A stretch of 49,997 nt of DNA from Minisyncoccota bacterium (GTDB taxonomy: Bacteria; Patescibacteriota; Minisyncoccia; Phycocordibacterales; UBA9973). Shown here in pieces: positions 3,213-36,357 of this stretch. Under the pieces are notes generated by a model. The model was not told the origin of the DNA. It worked only from the letters and a program-made list of their open reading frames with translations, and searched no databases. How positions within the stretch are numbered: position 1 is the stretch's first letter; each line of letters begins with the position of its first letter. Location of the stretch: the NCBI GenBank assembly GCA_031972835.1, contig DALYDX010000002.1, positions 1-49,997 of the forward strand, written 5' to 3'. The translations under genes were made by a program, and so were the position numbers.

Positions 3213-3262
3213 AAAGTGTATTGATTGTACTATGGATAAGGGCTTGACACAACGGCTCGCTT

Positions 3263-3354
3263 GATGGCGTTTTAAAAACCCATACATAAAATGTTGCTAC
3301 ATTTTTGCTTTTCTCGCCTCGCCAGGCTGCGAAGAGGGTTTTTAAAACGCCATC
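3263..3354 (+). repeat. solitary three-helix hairpin module (repeat family member U1)
   Basis: Perfect 19-bp outer stem: GATGGCGTTTTAAAAACCC pairs with GGGTTTTTAAAACGCCATC. Inner hairpins are AAAATGT-tgct-ACATTTT and GCCT-cgcc-AGGC. Layout and loops are shared with modules at 4870-4961, 5000-5091, 36101-36192 and 36230-36322. Confidence 0.8.
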
Positions 3355-3424
3355 TGCGCTCGCTGAGGAAAAGAATTCAGTTAGTTGCGCTCCCTTAGAA
3401 AAATTCGGACTGACACTTATTTTT

Positions 3425-4835: not shown

Positions 4836-5119
4836 AATCTAGAGTGTAGTTACAGGAAAAATCTTTTTCATCTCCACTATTTAAAAGCACGGATATTTTC
4901 TTGCTAGAAAATTCCTCGAGCTCGTGTCGTTACACTCGCTAGTCTTTTAAATAGTGGGGATCTTTGTGTTTTGAATTCAAGAATTCCTAAATAACTAAAT
5001 CCACACTTTCTAAAAAGCCTTGCGCAGTGCGACGGCACGAGCAGAGCAAAAATCCAGCAGGATTTTATGTGTGCTTTTTAAAAGTGGTGGATAAAAGAAA
5101 ATTTTTCTAGAAACTAGAC
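4836..5119. repeat. about 280-bp composite element A: two hairpin modules (4870-4961, 5000-5091) in opposite orientation
   Basis: The reverse complement matches 36078-36357 at roughly nine positions in ten, by eye. It lies between the convergent 3' ends of rlmB and rpsA. The right end is TTTTCTAGAAAC. Confidence 0.85.
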
Positions 5120-5151
5120 AATAATTAACCACTAACGAGATAGGAGTTGTA

Positions 5152-11795: not shown

Positions 11796-12197
11796 ATGAA
11801 AAAAATACCTTTTATTATTTCTGGAATTTTACTCGCTTCTTTTATGTTTTTATCTTCGGGTATATTGTATCCAGCAGGAGTTTCTGCAGATCCACTTATT
11901 CCATGTGATGGAGGGGAGACGAATCCATGCGACTTCAACGATATCATGACTCTTGTAAACAACGTGATAAATTTCTTGATCTTCACACTTGCTCTACCAC
12001 TAGCAGCTATCGTGATAGCGTGGTCAGGATTCTTGTTTCTCACAAGTGGCGCTGAGCCAGGTAAGCGTACTAAAGCCAAGAAGATGCTTACAGATGTAGT
12101 CATAGGTCTCGTGATAGCACTCGCTGCGTGGCTCATAGTACAAACTATACTCACGTCACTCGGTTACGACGGCCCAACCTTTCTTAGTGGAATTTAA
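11796..12197 (+). CDS. TrbC/VirB2-like (T4SS-pilin-like) two-TM protein, paralog 1, with signal peptide
   Basis: Signal peptide MKKIPFIISGILLASFMFLSSG..VSA. A Cys pair is followed by helix, charged loop (GAEPGKRTKAKK) and helix. It is paralogous to the next four genes. Confidence 0.6.
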   Translation: MKKIPFIISGILLASFMFLSSGILYPAGVSADPLIPCDGGETNPCDFNDIMTLVNNVINFLIFTLALPLAAIVIAWSGFLFLTSGAEPGKRTKAKKMLTDVVIGLVIALAAWLIVQTILTSLGYDGPTFLSGI

Positions 12198-12216
12198 TAA
12201 GATATAATCAATAAAC

Positions 12217-12702
12217 ATGAAAAGAAAAATTTTTATACTAACACTACTTACTGCGATTATTTTCTCTATATATCCTACTATTAGAGTTAGTGCTACTCAC
12301 AGCGTTGATCATAAAATAGATATCACAGCAGGAGGCGATGGAGATATTACAGCTGGTGGCGATGGAGATATCACAGCAGGGGGAGATACTGATACAGCAG
12401 GCTCCGATACAGGCGACTTCTCTCTTGATGTGACTATAGACAACCCACTCAAGACCGACATAGATACATTGCCTGAGTTCATAGAGGAAGTATTGCGTAT
12501 AGTTTTGAAAATAGGTATTCCTATAATAACTTTGTTTATTATCTATGCAGGTCTTTTGTTTGTCATGGCTGCCGGCAATCCTGAGAAACTTAAAAAAGCA
12601 AAAGAGACACTACTGTGGACACTTGTGGGAGCAGCAGTGCTGCTCGGTGCATGGGTCATAGCTGAGGCGATACAAGGTACACTTACACAATTGGGCGCTT
12701 AA
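12217..12702 (+). CDS. TrbC/VirB2-like two-TM protein, paralog 2, with signal peptide and ITAGGDGD repeats
   Basis: Signal peptide, then the DITAGGDGD repeat region, then the helix-NPEKLKKAKE-helix core. Confidence 0.6.
   Translation: MKRKIFILTLLTAIIFSIYPTIRVSATHSVDHKIDITAGGDGDITAGGDGDITAGGDTDTAGSDTGDFSLDVTIDNPLKTDIDTLPEFIEEVLRIVLKIGIPIITLFIIYAGLLFVMAAGNPEKLKKAKETLLWTLVGAAVLLGAWVIAEAIQGTLTQLGA
12319..12414 (+). repeat. in-frame 24-nt tandem repeat, about 4 copies (GATATCACAGCAGGAGGCGATGGA)
   Basis: Copies at 12319, 12343 and 12367, plus a degenerate fourth. They encode DITAGGDG units. Confidence 0.8.
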
Positions 12703-12727
12703 TATTAATTTAGCTTAATTTAAATTT

Positions 12728-13045
12728 ATGGGAGGCACAGCAACAGCAACATCATCATTTTGTCCACTTACAATACAGTCACTTGCTGACTTCTTGAATT
12801 TCTTTACATGTCTCATCAGTAAGTCTGTCATACCACTTCTGATTGCATTGGCTTTAGTCTTGTTCATATGGGGAGTGCTCAAGTTCATAATGAATGCAGA
12901 TGATAGTACAAAACGCGAGGAGGGAAGAGAGTTCATAGTGTGGGGGCTCATAGGACTTTTTGTCATGGTGTCTATCTGGGGGATTGTAAATATATTGAAC
13001 AGCACATTTGGAGTAAGTAATGTTATTCCACAGCTACCTATGTAG
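12728..13045 (+). CDS. TrbC/VirB2-like two-TM protein, paralog 3 (short form)
   Basis: Core sequence: LIALALVLFIWGVLKFIMNADDSTKREEGREFIVWGLIGLFVMVSIWGIVNIL. Confidence 0.6.
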   Translation: MGGTATATSSFCPLTIQSLADFLNFFTCLISKSVIPLLIALALVLFIWGVLKFIMNADDSTKREEGREFIVWGLIGLFVMVSIWGIVNILNSTFGVSNVIPQLPM

Positions 13046-13156
13046 GATGTGTTGTGTTTGGTTCTGGCTACTGTATAATTTACATATAGCAATTTGCGAC
13101 GCTCCCTGGTCTGGGACAGGCGAATATTATTAAATTAGTAAGTTTTAAATTATTTT

Positions 13157-13459
13157 ATGGATATTACAGATGTTTTAAATAAAATAGGAGATATATTAAA
13201 TGTTATAATCCCTATCTTAATCACACTCGGAGTTATCTACTTTATCTGGGGTGTTATCAAGTACGTAACAGCAAAAGACGAAGATGCACAGAAAGAAGGT
13301 CGCAACACTATCATCTCTGGAATAATCGGTCTATTCGTTATCGTAGCTGTATGGGGTCTTGTAGGTATTCTACAAGAAACATTTGATACAGGTAACAATA
13401 CTTTGAGTAACAACGATATTCCTTGTGTGCCTGGTGTTGGAACTAACGGAGACTGTTAA
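13157..13459 (+). CDS. TrbC/VirB2-like two-TM protein, paralog 4 (short form)
   Basis: Core sequence: ILITLGVIYFIWGVIKYVTAKDEDAQKEGRNTIISGIIGLFVIVAVWGLVGIL. It aligns closely with paralog 3. Confidence 0.6.
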   Translation: MDITDVLNKIGDILNVIIPILITLGVIYFIWGVIKYVTAKDEDAQKEGRNTIISGIIGLFVIVAVWGLVGILQETFDTGNNTLSNNDIPCVPGVGTNGDC

Positions 13460-13460
13460 T

Positions 13461-13784
13461 ATGTCGACCATGCCGACTCTTTTCCAAAAGGCTTTGGCGG
13501 CGACAACAGACTGTACTTCTAGTATCGATGGGTTGCTTGCAAAATTAAATCAGTATCTGATCAATCCACTTATAGTTTTCATGTTTGCGGTGGCGCTAGC
13601 ATACTTCATGTTTGGTGTAGTACAGTTTCTGTCCAATCAAGAAAAGTCAGAGGAGCGTACAAAAGGCCAGCAACATATGCTCTGGGGAGTTATCGGGATG
13701 TTTATCATGATTGCAGTATTTACAATCATGCGAATACTTGCGAACACTCTCGGTGGAGACACAACCTGTCTACCTACAATCTAA
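13461..13784 (+). CDS. TrbC/VirB2-like two-TM protein, paralog 5 (short form)
   Basis: Same helix, charged loop, helix core (FMFGVVQFLSNQEKSEERTKGQQHMLWGVIGMFIMIAVF). The start is taken at the ATG 1 nt after the paralog 4 stop; the track starts at 13425. Confidence 0.55.
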   Translation: MSTMPTLFQKALAATTDCTSSIDGLLAKLNQYLINPLIVFMFAVALAYFMFGVVQFLSNQEKSEERTKGQQHMLWGVIGMFIMIAVFTIMRILANTLGGDTTCLPTI

Positions 13785-26003: not shown

Positions 26004-26017
26004 ATTCTTTTAATTAT

Positions 26018-26044
26018 AAAATCCCTGAGATAAGGGATTTTTTT
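26018..26044 (+). terminator. intrinsic terminator
   Basis: AAAATCCCT-gagataa-GGGATTTT followed by a T-run. Confidence 0.7.
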
Positions 26045-26124
26045 ATTTAAGCACTCGTTCCACTCGTCTTGTTTACCGCTTTCGTTTTTCAAATCCTGCA
26101 CGCGAGATAAACTGATGCCTCGTT

Positions 26125-26178
26125 CCGACGCACAATAAAAAAATCCCAAGTATTTGGGATTTTTTTATTGTGCGTCGG
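26125..26178. repeat. perfect hairpin of about 25 bp whose right arm includes the tRNA-Tyr 3' acceptor strand
   Basis: CCGACGCACAATAAAAAAATCCCAA-gtat-TTGGGATTTTTTTATTGTGCGTCGG. Confidence 0.85.
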
Positions 26179-34581: not shown

Positions 34582-34588
34582 ATTTTTG

Positions 34589-34679
34589 TGCCCAGGGAGA
34601 CTCGGTCATAGATAATTTTCTGCTGAAAATTTATACGACCCTGCCTCGCATCGGCATGCTTCGGCTTTCGAATCTCTCC
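34589..34679 (+). repeat. duplicated tRNA-Leu(CAA) 3'-end fragment fused to a hairpin-family module (U4)
   Basis: TGCCCAGGGAGACTCG repeats the tRNA 3' end found at 34722-34739. It is followed by AATTTTC-tgct-GAAAATT and TGCC-tcgcatc-GGCA, the family P2 and P3 layout. Confidence 0.5.
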
Positions 34680-34681
34680 AA

Positions 34682-34721
34682 CAATAACAAAAAACAACCT
34701 GAAGGTTGATTTTTGTTATTG
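34682..34721 (-). terminator. long hairpin immediately 3' of tRNA-Leu(CAA)
   Basis: CAATAACAAAAAACAACC-tgaa-GGTTGATTTTTGTTATTG. Confidence 0.6.
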
Positions 34722-34804
34722 TGCCCAGGGAGAGACTCGAACTCTCACAATGTTGCCATCGAGGGATTTTGAGTCCCTTGCGTCTACCATTCCGCCACCT
34801 GGGC
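34722..34804 (-). tRNA. tRNA-Leu (anticodon CAA)
   Basis: Acceptor GCCCAGG/CCTGGGC, anticodon loop CTCAAAA, long variable arm, T-arm GAGAG-TTCGAGT-CTCTC. Confidence 0.92.
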
Positions 34805-36024: not shown

Positions 36025-36077
36025 ATAAACTTTTGGTTGTCGTGGCTTCTACTATATTGCTTGTTGTTTAAAGTTTG

Positions 36078-36357
36078 GTTTCTAGAAAACCTTTCTTTTA
36101 TCCACGACTTTTAAAAAGCACACATAAAATCCTGCTGGATTTTTGCTCTGCTCGTGCCGCCGCACTACGCAAGGCTTTTTAGAAAGTGTGGATTTTATTA
36201 TTTATGAATTCTGAATTCAAAATACAAAGATCCCCACTATTTAAAAGACTAGTGAGCGCGACGGCGCGAAACTCGAGGAATTTTTCACCAGAAAAATATC
36301 CGTACTTTTAAATAGTGGGGATGAAAAAGATTTTTCTAGAAACTAGACTCTAGATAA
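36078..36357. repeat. about 280-bp composite element B: modules at 36101-36192 and 36230-36322; inverted copy of element A
   Basis: See element A. The terminal inverted repeat is GTTTCTAGAAAA / TTTTCTAGAAAC. It lies between the convergent 3' ends of parB and rel. Confidence 0.85.

What the first reader, a model, noticed from the sequence alone, without database searches (positions are those of the whole stretch)
3263..3354. Three-helix hairpin module family with compensatory changes in all three helices (type copy U1)
U1 has a perfect 19-bp outer stem (P1): GATGGCGTTTTAAAAACCC pairs with GGGTTTTTAAAACGCCATC. The stem encloses an A/T hairpin (P2) AAAATGT-tgct-ACATTTT and a GC hairpin (P3) GCCT-cgcc-AGGC. 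The same layout recurs at 4870-4961, 5000-5091, 36101-36192 and 36230-36322, and with a weaker P1 at 34594-34679. Between copies the loops (TGCT, CGYC) and the linker ATTTTTGCT stay put, while the stems change as pairs.
- P2: AAAATGT/ACATTTT, AAAATCC/GGATTTT, AATTTTC/GAAAATT, ATTTTCT/AGAAAAT, ATTTTTC/GAAAAAT.
- P3: GCCT/AGGC, GTGC/GCAC, GCGC/GCGC, GTGT/ACAC.
- P1: unrelated flanks around a shared TTTTAAAA core.
This pattern points to selection on a fold (RNA or ssDNA) rather than on primary sequence, and a plain MITE would not behave this way. All copies are intergenic. I do not recognise it as any Rfam family or described REP/BIME.
Basis: seen in the sequence. Interest (0 to 1): 0.72.

Follow-up and report, generated by a model that had tools for sequence, protein, structure and literature searches.

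The report
Mobile three-helix palindromic repeat of Paceibacteria
The six hairpin modules are real. They belong to a large, apparently undescribed family of small palindromic repeats in Paceibacteria (candidate phyla radiation) that keeps a three-helix fold through paired base changes, and in other genomes it sits in frame inside housekeeping genes, much as Rickettsia palindromic elements do.

Summary
A covariance model finds exactly the six stated copies in the window. All fold as P1 enclosing two hairpins. No Rfam family matches.

Two corrections apply.
- The six copies are only four independent types, because 4837-5129 and 36063-36355 are one 293-bp composite duplicated in inverted orientation.

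A degenerate 43-nt core pattern, with about one chance hit expected, found at least 120 loci, nearly all in Patescibacteria. Covariation is very strong: 91% of cells pair against 66% when shuffled.

The family does not behave like an ordinary RNA gene.
- Orientation relative to neighbouring genes is near random.
- No neighbouring gene family is enriched, and no promoter or terminator is conserved.
- Copies are present or absent between sister genomes.
- One orthologous locus keeps its arms but carries different cores.
- About 10% of copies lie in frame inside TsaD, TruB, Fmt, RecG, RecJ, PGM and an M1 peptidase.
- 106 of 120 TsaD orthologues carry an insert at one loop, in either orientation.

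Best reading: a selfish, fold-dependent palindromic repeat like the Rickettsia RPEs. How it moves is unknown. I rate it a new variant of a known kind.

The parts
3262..3354 (-). Copy U1, between lepB and pth. On the + strand, P1 is 3263-3281 with 3336-3354, P2 is 3288-3294 with 3299-3305 (loop 3295-3298), and P3 is 3316-3319 with 3324-3327 (loop 3320-3323).
   Evidence: Sequence. Fold z -6.5 and -7.2. Covariance model 86.6 bits on the - strand. An orthologous copy with paired changes in all three helices is at L005 5179-5271.
4869..4961 (-). Copy A1, the left member of the inverted pair between spoU and the S1 protein gene.
   Evidence: Covariance model 73.9 bits. Fold z -6.5 and -7.2. Absent from the sister genome L005.
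5000..5092 (+). Copy B1, the right member of the pair. Its fold-sense 5' end faces that of A1 across a 38-nt spacer.
   Evidence: Covariance model 93.3 bits. Orthologous B copies in L130 and L132 differ almost only in P2, and those differences are fully compensated.
34590..34682 (-). Copy W, diverged. It is a core (P3 plus P2) flanked by the two halves of a tRNA T-arm, 133 nt downstream of the genuine tRNA-Leu(caa).
   Evidence: Covariance model 32.8 bits, E 2.7e-7. It folds at -33.1 kcal/mol on the - strand against -23.4 on the + strand. Repeat D8 duplicates the tRNA 3' end.
36100..36192 (-). Copy B2, paralogue of B1, between parB and relA/spoT.
   Evidence: Covariance model 90.8 bits. Inverted repeat I1 at 91%.
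36230..36323 (+). Copy A2, paralogue of A1.
   Evidence: Covariance model 69.7 bits. Inverted repeats I2 and I3 at 87-88%.
4837..5129 (.). Composite palindrome 1: an inverted copy of the flanking 'tail', then A1, a spacer, B1, and the native tail GATAAAAGAAAATTTTTCTAGAAACTAGAC.
   Evidence: Inverted repeats I1-I3 and direct repeat D14. L005 has only the tail at this site.
36063..36355 (.). Composite palindrome 2, the reverse-complement copy of composite 1, 31 kb away.
3254..3261 (+). GGCTCGCT, the left copy of the direct repeat that flanks U1.
   Evidence: The same repeat separates units in L131 and L133.
3357..3364 (+). CGCTCGCT, the right copy of the direct repeat that flanks U1. It is the only exact copy in the window.
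34588..34604 (-). A duplicate of the tRNA-Leu(caa) 3' end (T-arm 3' strand plus acceptor) that forms the 3' flank of W.
   Evidence: repeat D8.

Best explanation
The modules are copies of a non-autonomous palindromic repeat family that is specific to Paceibacteria-type Patescibacteria and resembles the Rickettsia palindromic elements (RPE).

**Anatomy.** The conserved unit is a core of about 58 nt. On one particular strand it folds into two hairpins at a three-way junction. In fold sense it reads CUUGCGCAG-GNN-GNCG-NNC-CGAGCA.AGCAA-[7 bp]-AGCA-[7 bp]-UAUGYGUG. Fast-evolving complementary arms (P1, about 13-50 bp in most copies) close the junction.

**Shown**
- The family is multi-copy and dispersed.
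- Its fold, not its sequence, is what is kept.
- Copies differ in presence between sister genomes.
- A locus can keep its arms while its core is replaced by another subtype.
- Both orientations occur at the same site.
- Copies often form inverted pairs.
- Copies survive where they do no harm: intergenic spacers, tRNA-operon spacers, and protein loops. Every copy seen inside a gene is in frame and free of stop codons, which implies it is translated.

**Inferred**
- The fold is needed for the element's own propagation. The likely form is a folded single strand (most probably ssDNA) that an unidentified enzyme recognises in trans, and/or ectopic gene conversion between copies.
- Intrastrand template switching may keep the arms perfectly complementary and extend them outward.
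- No benefit to the host is required.
For: **Distribution**
- A core pattern of about 40 bits found at least 120 loci in GTDB species genomes. Almost all are Paceibacteria, Nomurabacteria, Kaiserbacteria, Yonathbacteria and relatives, often several loci per genome.
- The covariance model found 154 hits in 926 kb of those loci.
- The same pattern found only one hit in 2.9 million viral contigs.

**Fold and strand**
- Covariation is strong.
- The non-Watson-Crick positions are strand-specific. One pair is G-C in 67 sequences and G-U in 45. Another is U-A in 73 and U-G in 17. One subfamily has tandem G.A pairs.

**Not a gene-linked RNA**
- Orientation relative to neighbouring genes is near random: 30, 20, 19 and 17 across the four classes.
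- No neighbouring protein family occurs in more than 6 of about 120 loci.
- No promoter or terminator signal is conserved in the flanks.

**Mobility and conversion**
- At the spoU-S1 spacer the window has A plus B, L130 and L132 have B only, and L005 has none.
- At the lepB-pth spacer the 3' arm ...AAAAC(A/G)CCATCTGCGCTCGCT is kept in the window, L005, L131 and L133. The cores there are U1-type, B-like and A-like respectively (A-like in L133). L130 has a further A-like core with a more diverged arm.
- The tRNA-Lys/tRNA-Leu spacer is filled in L042 and L048 but empty in the window.

**Copies inside genes**
- 11 sense copies and 1 antisense copy lie inside Pfam-confirmed housekeeping genes. All are in frame.
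- Fmt orthologues without the element align across a gap of about 25 aa.
- 106 of 120 TsaD homologues carry an insert at one loop: 41 with the sense core, 19 with the antisense core, 5 with two elements in tandem, and several decayed forms.
- All five tightly flanked gene pairs that I tested are two complete, separate genes rather than one split gene.

**Known parallel**
- RPEs show the same combination of a palindromic stem-loop, intergenic copies, in-frame copies inside genes, and copies in RNA genes (PMC2229807, PMC10969869).
Against: - No transposase, conserved termini or unambiguous target-site duplication was identified.
- The core is highly conserved across a whole class. Intact folds (79-99 bits) persist inside genes whose proteins are only 60-80% identical. 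That fits purifying selection for a host function as well as it fits continual re-homogenisation.
- G.U pairs and tandem G.A pairs are classic features of functional RNA.
- There is no expression data, and no complete-genome census of copy number or replication-strand bias.
Confidence: 0.62

Rival explanations
1. It is a structured non-coding RNA with a function for the host. It could be a trans-acting small RNA released from long processing stems, or a cis-acting element for mRNA or tRNA-precursor stability or processing. On this reading the gene family is merely multi-copy.
For: - Covariation in all helices.
- Conserved junction and loop nucleotides, AGCA and GNCG.
- Strand-specific G.U and tandem G.A pairs.
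- Conservation across a whole class.
- Two copies sit in tRNA operons in the same orientation as the tRNAs.
- The long P1 stems would be substrates for RNase III (inference).
Against: - Orientation relative to flanking co-directional genes is 17 sense against 30 antisense.
- No promoter or terminator is conserved, and no neighbouring gene is conserved.
- Copies are gained, lost and swapped between sister genomes.
- Copies sit in frame inside open reading frames in both orientations.
- Decayed copies are tolerated at the same sites.
Confidence: 0.2
2. It is an intervening sequence removed at the RNA level, so that proteins and tRNAs are made without it. The model would be a mini-intron, or an RNase III-excised sequence like those in 23S rRNA.
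For: - It is found inside protein genes and tRNA operons and beside a tRNA fragment.
- It forms a long stem-loop like the rRNA intervening sequences (resemblance recalled from memory).
Against: - Every copy inside a gene is in frame and free of stop codons. Meanwhile 52 of 119 copies overall carry a stop in that frame. This is the pattern expected if the insert is translated, not spliced.
- All five tested tightly flanking gene pairs are separate complete genes, so no split genes were found.
- It is far smaller than any known self-splicing intron and has no Rfam match.
Confidence: 0.05
3. It is a DNA element with a chromosomal function, for example a binding or loading site for a nucleoid or replication protein. 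Alternatively, the fold is a pure by-product of palindrome maintenance by template switching, with nothing selecting for it.
For: - P2 and P3 are almost exclusively Watson-Crick, with about 0.2% G.T among the variable pairs.
- Several copies have perfect arms of 30-40 bp.
- The genome has other extended perfect palindromes, for example 26125-26178 over the 3' end of tRNA-Tyr.
- I first noted DnaA-box-like ends on A and B, and the parB gene is nearby.
Against: - Non-Watson-Crick features are conserved on one strand only. That argues against a symmetric duplex or cruciform role, and against unselected palindrome correction.
- There is no GC-skew switch in the window.
- The ends of P1 vary across the family, so the resemblance to DnaA boxes is local.
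- Copies are dispensable between sister genomes.
Confidence: 0.08

Closest known systems
Rickettsia palindromic elements (RPE)
   Same: - Small (about 100-150 bp), multi-copy and dispersed.
- Predicted long stem-loop.
- No transposase encoded.
- Found in a reduced genome of a host-dependent bacterium.
- Found in intergenic regions, in frame inside conserved housekeeping genes, and in or next to RNA genes.
- Mechanism of movement unknown (PMC2229807, PMC10969869).
   Different: - A different phylum. I did not test for sequence similarity.
- Here the conserved part is a central two-hairpin junction, and the arms vary from copy to copy. RPE families are described as conserved along their length, with 12-bp terminal inverted repeats.
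- Core swapping at a fixed locus, and one protein loop (in TsaD) occupied in most orthologues, are not described for RPE in the papers I read.
Bacterial MITEs and palindromic repeats (Correia/NEMIS, ERIC, RUP, YPAL)
   Same: - Non-autonomous repeats of about 100-170 bp that fold as stem-loops when transcribed.
- Some have open frames fused to genes.
- Filled and empty sites differ between relatives (PMC2229807).
   Different: Those have conserved terminal inverted repeats and usually a TA duplication of the target site. Some have a known parent insertion sequence. Here the termini are not conserved, and only a subset shows CGAG/CGCTCGCT flanking repeats.
REP/BIME/REPIN elements mobilised by RAYT (Y1 HUH) transposases
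   Same: - Recognised by structure rather than sequence.
- Single-strand hairpins.
- Often in inverted pairs.
- Mobilised in trans.
   Different: REPs are 20-40 bp palindromes with a GTAG or CGTC tag at one end (PMC3733652) and are extragenic. Here the unit is a 58-nt two-hairpin core with long arms and can sit inside genes. Whether a RAYT gene is present could not be tested.
Integron attC sites, and the ends of IS200/IS605 elements and their PATE derivatives (recalled from memory)
   Same: - Function depends on the fold of one specific DNA strand.
- Sequence drifts while the structure is kept.
   Different: - In attC the base of the stem (R/L boxes) is conserved and the tip varies, which is the reverse of this case. 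attC sites also lie in one-directional cassette arrays next to intI.
- IS200/IS605 ends carry two similar hairpins and no enclosing stem.
TIGR stem-loop arrays (PMC12045711)
   Same: Variable but consistently palindromic stems around conserved loop motifs, and presence in candidate phyla radiation bacteria.
   Different: TIGR units carry box C/D motifs and two variable spacers, and they lie in tandem arrays next to a Tas gene. None of these features is present here.

Membership tests
RPE-like / MITE-like palindromic repeat | Small (about 100-200 bp), multi-copy, dispersed, and encoding no protein of its own. | tested here: met
   Six copies in 50 kb. 154 covariance-model hits in 926 kb of related loci. 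No neighbouring gene family is enriched.
RPE-like / MITE-like palindromic repeat | The 5' and 3' ends pair to give a long stem-loop. | tested here: met
   P1 arms have a median length of 21 bp and reach 51 bp. Folds.
RPE-like / MITE-like palindromic repeat | In-frame insertions in conserved protein genes (the RPE hallmark). | tested here: met
   TsaD, TruB, Fmt, RecG, RecJ, PGM and an M1 peptidase. 106 of 120 TsaD homologues carry an insert.
RPE-like / MITE-like palindromic repeat | Filled and empty sites differ between related genomes. | tested here: met
   The spoU-S1 spacer, the tRNA-Lys/tRNA-Leu spacer, Fmt and TsaD.
RPE-like / MITE-like palindromic repeat | Terminal inverted repeats with a sequence shared by all copies. 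| tested here: not met
   The distal arms differ between copies, even within one genome. Only the core and the part of P1 next to it are conserved.
RPE-like / MITE-like palindromic repeat | Duplication of the target site. | tested here: inconclusive
   Roughly a quarter of copies are flanked by AGCGAG...CGAGCG in fold sense. U1 is flanked by GGCTCGCT and CGCTCGCT. W is flanked by CGAA...CGAG inside a T-loop. A and B lack such flanks.
RPE-like / MITE-like palindromic repeat | Sequence homology to the Rickettsia RPE families. | not tested
   No RPE sequences were available in the tools I used.
Rfam structured RNA families | A score at or above a family's gathering threshold. | tested here: not met
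   Only tRNAs passed. The best hits on the modules had E values of 0.3-7, and all were unrelated families.
REP/BIME-RAYT | A 20-40 bp extragenic palindrome with a GTAG or CGTC end tag. | tested here: not met
   The unit is at least 90 nt with two internal hairpins. CGTC occurs as the loop of P3, not as an end tag. Copies also occur inside genes.
REP/BIME-RAYT | A cognate RAYT (Y1 transposase) gene in the genome. | not testable with these tools
   Only fragments of the genomes were available.
Integron attC | Conserved R''/R' boxes (RYYYAAC / GTTRRRY) at the base of the stem, and one-directional cassette arrays beside intI. | tested here: not met
   The base of the stem is variable and the consensus boxes are absent (read directly from the sequence). 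Orientation is near random and no integrase is among the neighbours.
Self-splicing intron / RNase III-excised intervening sequence | Interrupts genes with no constraint on frame or stop codons. | tested here: not met
   All copies inside genes are in frame and stop-free. No split genes were found among the five tightly flanked pairs tested.

The most novel reading that the evidence does not exclude
The 58-nt three-way-junction core is the recognition module of a so far unknown mobility system that acts on structure. In this reading a recombinase, HUH enzyme or reverse transcriptase acts on one folded strand, exchanges cores between resident stem-loops, and seeds new stem-loops, including in protein loops and RNA genes. 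Alternatively it is a mobile small-RNA gene that rides inside mRNAs and tRNA precursors and is processed out of them.
Probability: 0.2. Interest if true: 0.85.

Novelty: new variant of a known kind. Interest (0 to 1): 0.66.

Why it matters
- **A second example of a rare phenomenon.** If this holds, Paceibacteria carry an abundant, lineage-wide counterpart of the Rickettsia palindromic elements. Reduced genomes of symbionts would then have acquired translated palindromic insertions independently at least twice.
- **A large natural data set.** There are hundreds of species and many filled, empty, inverted and swapped alleles. That makes it possible to attack the long-open question of how such elements move and why their fold is kept.
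- **Practical consequences.** The element adds 25-65 residues to core enzymes such as TsaD, TruB and Fmt. It breaks short-read assemblies: several contigs end inside copies. It also generates spurious short 'hypothetical proteins' in databases.

Tried and rejected
- **Rfam.** Searches at gathering score and at E<=10 returned nothing relevant.
- **tRNA or tmRNA identity.** None of the six copies is called as a tRNA or tmRNA; only the seven ordinary tRNA genes were found.
- **Replication origin or DnaA-box idea.** The ends of A and B look like TTATCCAC, and parB is adjacent. There is no GC-skew switch and the P1 ends vary across the family, so I dropped it.
- **Flanking promoters or terminators.** No positional signal in either orientation.
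- **A linked transposase or partner gene.** All-against-all clustering of 684 neighbouring open reading frames found no family in more than 6 loci.
- **TIGR stem-loop arrays.** No box C/D motifs, spacers or Tas gene.
- **Phage origin.** One hit in the viral contigs.
- **Protein searches with the encoded peptide.** The indexed search found 7 short open reading frames. The exhaustive profile search found 83 hits, mostly spurious 26-140 aa reading frames over intergenic copies and a few long repeat proteins. Neither was useful for listing host proteins.
- **More distant syntenic relatives.** Those with SpoU at 55-57% identity (L007-L009) have no copy in about 58 kb.
- **Split-gene (intron) test.** Five tightly flanked pairs were all separate complete genes.
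- **Literature.** Seven searches found no description of this family.

Full report
**1. Checking the observation**

- P1 is a perfect 19-bp stem, GATGGCGTTTTAAAAACCC with GGGTTTTTAAAACGCCATC.
- It encloses AAAATGT-TGCT-ACATTTT (P2) and GCCT-CGCC-AGGC (P3).

The copies at 4870-4961, 5000-5091, 36101-36192, 36230-36322 and the weak one at 34594-34679 are also there. Each folds far better than shuffled sequence, with z between -3.1 and -7.6 for the five good copies on either strand. Rfam has nothing for them, either at gathering score or at E<=10.

One correction matters for counting. 4837-5129 and 36063-36355 are a single ~293-bp unit duplicated in inverted orientation at 87-91% identity. A1/A2 and B1/B2 are therefore paralogue pairs, and only U1, A, B and W are independent. 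Even so, A1 and A2 differ by true double changes in P2 (CT/AG to TC/GA) and in P3 (GTGT/ACAC to GCGC/GCGC).

**2. The family is large and specific to one lineage**

The window comes from a Patescibacteria metagenome-assembled genome, GCA_031972635.1, contig DALYEG010000003.1. The local genes are housekeeping genes: hisS, lepB, pth, a SpoU methylase, the S1 protein, gyrA, parB and relA.

I searched the GTDB species genomes with a degenerate 43-nt core pattern, ATAWWWWNNTGSTNNWWWWTTNNNNNNYTCGNNNCGNNNNNCT. It carries about 40 bits, so about one chance match is expected. Almost all are Paceibacteria, Nomurabacteria, Kaiserbacteria, Yonathbacteria, Zambryskibacteria or Lloydbacteria, often with several loci per genome.

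A covariance model built from 119 of these sequences gave three results.
- It finds exactly the six copies in the window, at 93, 91, 87, 74, 70 and 33 bits. The next-best site that is not the opposite strand of one of these six scores 14 bits.
- It finds 154 copies in 926 kb of the fetched loci.
- It finds none in about 58 kb of more distant syntenic relatives, L007-L009.

**3. The fold is what is conserved, and on one strand**

Column statistics and RNAalifold agree on the structure: P1, an extended P3 and an extended P2 around a junction. 27 of 31 pairs show changes on both sides.

On the named structure:

| Measure | Observed | Shuffled | Partners slid |
|---|---|---|---|
| Cells that pair | 91.3% | 65.6% | 41-56% |
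| Covariation score | 0.651 | 0.196 (0 of 500 shuffles reach it) | 0.09-0.19 |

The variable pairs of P2 and P3 are almost purely Watson-Crick.

The positions that are not Watson-Crick are strand-specific.
- one pair is G-C in 67 sequences and G-U in 45;
- another is U-A in 73 and U-G in 17;
- a widespread subfamily has a UGAG/CGAG internal loop, that is, tandem G.A pairs.

Copy W also folds at -33 kcal/mol on that opposite strand against -23 on the other.

So the functional fold belongs to one single strand. In the window that strand is - for U1, A1, B2 and W, and + for B1 and A2.

**4. It does not behave like an ordinary RNA gene or a cis-regulator**

- Orientation relative to the flanking genes is near random. 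The four orientation classes hold 30, 20, 19 and 17 copies. Between co-directional genes, 17 copies are sense and 30 antisense.
- No protein family recurs among the neighbours. The maximum is 6 of about 120 loci.
- The flanks show no conserved promoter or terminator in either orientation.
- About a dozen copies form adjacent inverted pairs like A1-B1, mostly with their fold-sense 5' ends facing each other. Spacers are as short as 7 nt, which leaves no room for promoters between them.

**5. It is gained, lost and exchanged between close relatives**

Relatives whose SpoU protein is 90-92% identical to the window's show three kinds of turnover.
- *spoU-S1 spacer.* The window has A1 plus B1. L130 and L132 have only a B copy. 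L005 has none, only the native 'tail' sequence.
- *Orthologous B copies.* They are nearly identical except in P2: AAAAUCC/GGAUUUU in the window, AAAAUCU/AGAUUUU in L132, and AUUCGCU/AGCGAAU in L130. Every difference is compensated.
- *lepB-pth spacer.* The window, L005, L131 and L133 keep the same 3' arm and flank...AAAAC(A/G)CCATCTGCGCTCGCT. The core differs: U1-type in the window, B-like in L005 and L131, and A-like in L133. L130 also has an A-like core, with a more diverged arm. L131 in addition keeps a truncated remnant of the window type.

Some of the 'compensatory change between copies' therefore reflects whole cores being swapped or converted between resident copies, not stepwise evolution in place. 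In addition, the tRNA-Lys/tRNA-Leu spacer is filled in L042 and L048, with the copy oriented like the tRNAs, but is an empty 29-nt spacer in the window.

**6. The decisive turn: copies inside genes**

Twelve of 126 core hits lie inside long open reading frames. Pfam confirms these as an M1 aminopeptidase, RecG, RecJ, phosphoglucomutase, TsaD (three times), Fmt (twice) and TruB (three times). The element falls between domains or inside a domain alignment.

Eleven of the twelve are in fold sense and in one reading frame. They encode ...(S/L)(I/L)AQ(A/R)(D/V)(E/G)(P/A)S(I/R)A(N/K)(F/I)QQ(K/N)(I/F)M.... One TruB carries the element at the same site but in the opposite orientation.

The peptide varies exactly as the stems covary, so the constraint is on the nucleic acid and not on the peptide. 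Fmt orthologues without the element align across a gap of about 25 residues.

Among the 120 closest homologues of one TsaD (63-81% identity apart from the identical database entry), the loop between YPGGPxISKLAE and LPRPML looks like this:

| State of the loop | Number of homologues |
|---|---|
| Insert of roughly 10-70 residues | 106 |
| - with the sense core (including 4 that also carry an antisense core) | 41 |
| - with the antisense core, NFSAEKF..GRRPAES (including those 4, and 1 also carrying the type-2 form) | 19 |
| - with a decayed 'type 2' form (including that 1) | 22 |
| - with two elements in tandem (the 4 + 1 doubles counted in the rows above) | 5 |
| Empty | 14 |

The type-2 form still scores 33.7 bits. 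It has P1 and P3 intact and P2 lost.

Overall, 52 of 119 copies carry a stop codon in the 'coding' frame, whereas no copy inside a gene does. Five tightly flanked pairs of co-directional genes proved to be separate complete genes, not halves of one gene. This is the pattern expected from insertion followed by a translation filter, not from splicing.

**7. Interpretation**

Taken together, the family shows:
- small palindromic units, many dispersed copies, and no gene of its own;
- differences in presence between relatives;
- copies in intergenic DNA, in or beside RNA genes, and in frame inside conserved enzymes;
- a symbiont with a reduced genome as host.

That combination matches what is described for the Rickettsia palindromic elements (PMC2229807, PMC10969869).

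It differs from RPEs and from classical MITEs in its architecture. The conserved part is a central two-hairpin junction whose loops and junction nucleotides are nearly invariant. The arms change from copy to copy yet stay complementary.

I therefore read it as a selfish, fold-dependent repeat.
- *Shown:* the distribution, the fold, the strand asymmetry, the turnover, the core swapping, occupation of one site in both orientations, and in-frame survival.
- *Inferred:* the fold of one strand is required for propagation. It could be recognised in trans as ssDNA, by analogy with REP-RAYT, attC-IntI and IS200/IS605. It could also promote ectopic conversion. Intrastrand template switching may help keep the arms perfect and extend them. 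Two observations fit that last idea. The A-B composite has absorbed an inverted copy of its flanking 'tail'. The same genome also has a perfect 25-bp palindrome that extends over the 3' end of tRNA-Tyr.
- *Unknown:* the enzyme, the termini and the target. A CGAG/CGCTCGCT direct repeat flanks roughly a quarter of copies, U1 among them, and separates units in L131 and L133. W looks like a core inserted at CGAG in a tRNA T-loop. A and B lack such flanks.

**8. Rivals**

- *A structured RNA that benefits the host* remains possible (about 0.2). It is favoured by the deep conservation of the core and by the RNA-like non-canonical pairs. It is disfavoured by the near-random orientation, the absence of transcription signals, the turnover between relatives, and tolerance of either orientation inside genes.
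- *An intron-like excised element* is unlikely (about 0.05), because every copy inside a gene is in frame and stop-free.
- *A duplex-DNA function, or pure palindrome maintenance with no selection,* is unlikely (about 0.08), because non-Watson-Crick features are conserved on one strand only.

**9. Novelty**

I found no Rfam family and no paper describing this family. The library does not hold everything, so an earlier description cannot be excluded. I classify it as a new variant of a known kind: RPE-like or MITE-like palindromic repeats, in a new phylum, with a distinctive anatomy of conserved core and variable arms and with core exchange between copies.

Noticed in passing
window 4837-5129 and 36063-36355: A ~293-bp composite (inverted tail, A, spacer, B, tail) is duplicated in inverted orientation 31 kb apart at 87-91% identity. 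Each composite is itself a large palindrome. The pair could mediate inversion of the 31-kb segment between them. Gene order at the left boundary matches the sister genome.
   Followed up: partly
window 26125-26178: A perfect 25-bp palindrome. It consists of the 3' acceptor strand of tRNA-Tyr (CCGACGCAC), a terminator hairpin, and an inverted copy, GTGCGTCGG. A related terminator copy lies at 26012-26047. It looks like a palindrome that has been extended over the end of a tRNA.
   Followed up: partly
window 34588-34604 and 34721-34740: The 3' end of tRNA-Leu(caa) (T-arm 3' strand plus acceptor) occurs twice in direct orientation, 133 nt apart, each copy next to a similar terminator hairpin. Copy W lies between the two. 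This could be an att-like duplication or an insertion into a T-loop.
   Followed up: partly
window 3254-3261, 3357-3364, 3388-3395; L131 880-1110; L133 60-140: The 8-mer CGCTCGCT flanks U1. In close relatives it separates several short units in the lepB-pth spacer, including a 47-nt unit, tagacaaaatcagtcggtctgtgcgaggctttttattacacaacctt. The same motif flanks roughly a quarter of family copies in distant genomes. It could be a target or recombination site, or part of a subfamily.
   Followed up: partly
L130 1560-1770 and L132 910-1110: In relatives that have only the B copy at the spoU-S1 spacer, about 200 nt of other sequence with its own long inverted repeats occupies the place of A1. An example is cagtaccaagaatac...gtataatcttggtactg. 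It may be a different palindromic element.
   Followed up: no
L135 4627-4720, and TsaD homologues P0210, P0220, P0225 and others: A 'type 2' insert in TsaD, ...SQADGPRGSAPRARGDSDPEKI..., is length-conserved in at least 21 orthologues. It is a decayed family member with P1 and P3 kept and P2 lost. Further insert types, SGPRFSGSLSQPDHEKS and GSLSPRARGALPL, occupy the same loop.
   Followed up: partly
window ~11796-13600: A cluster of five small genes of the T4SS-pilin type (PF18895, as annotated on the identical contig L001). A 24-nt tandem repeat lies at 12318-12394 inside one of them.
   Followed up: no
L021 (SRR contigs), L130, L133, L018, L078, L120: Several short-read contigs end inside or right at a copy of the element. 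The repeat therefore breaks assemblies. Gene callers also produce 26-140 aa 'hypothetical proteins' over intergenic copies (P0121-P0127 and many hits).
   Followed up: partly
L007 8650-8960: In a more distant relative, the lepB-pth spacer holds a GC-rich segment of about 300 nt that does not match the family. I did not identify it.
   Followed up: no
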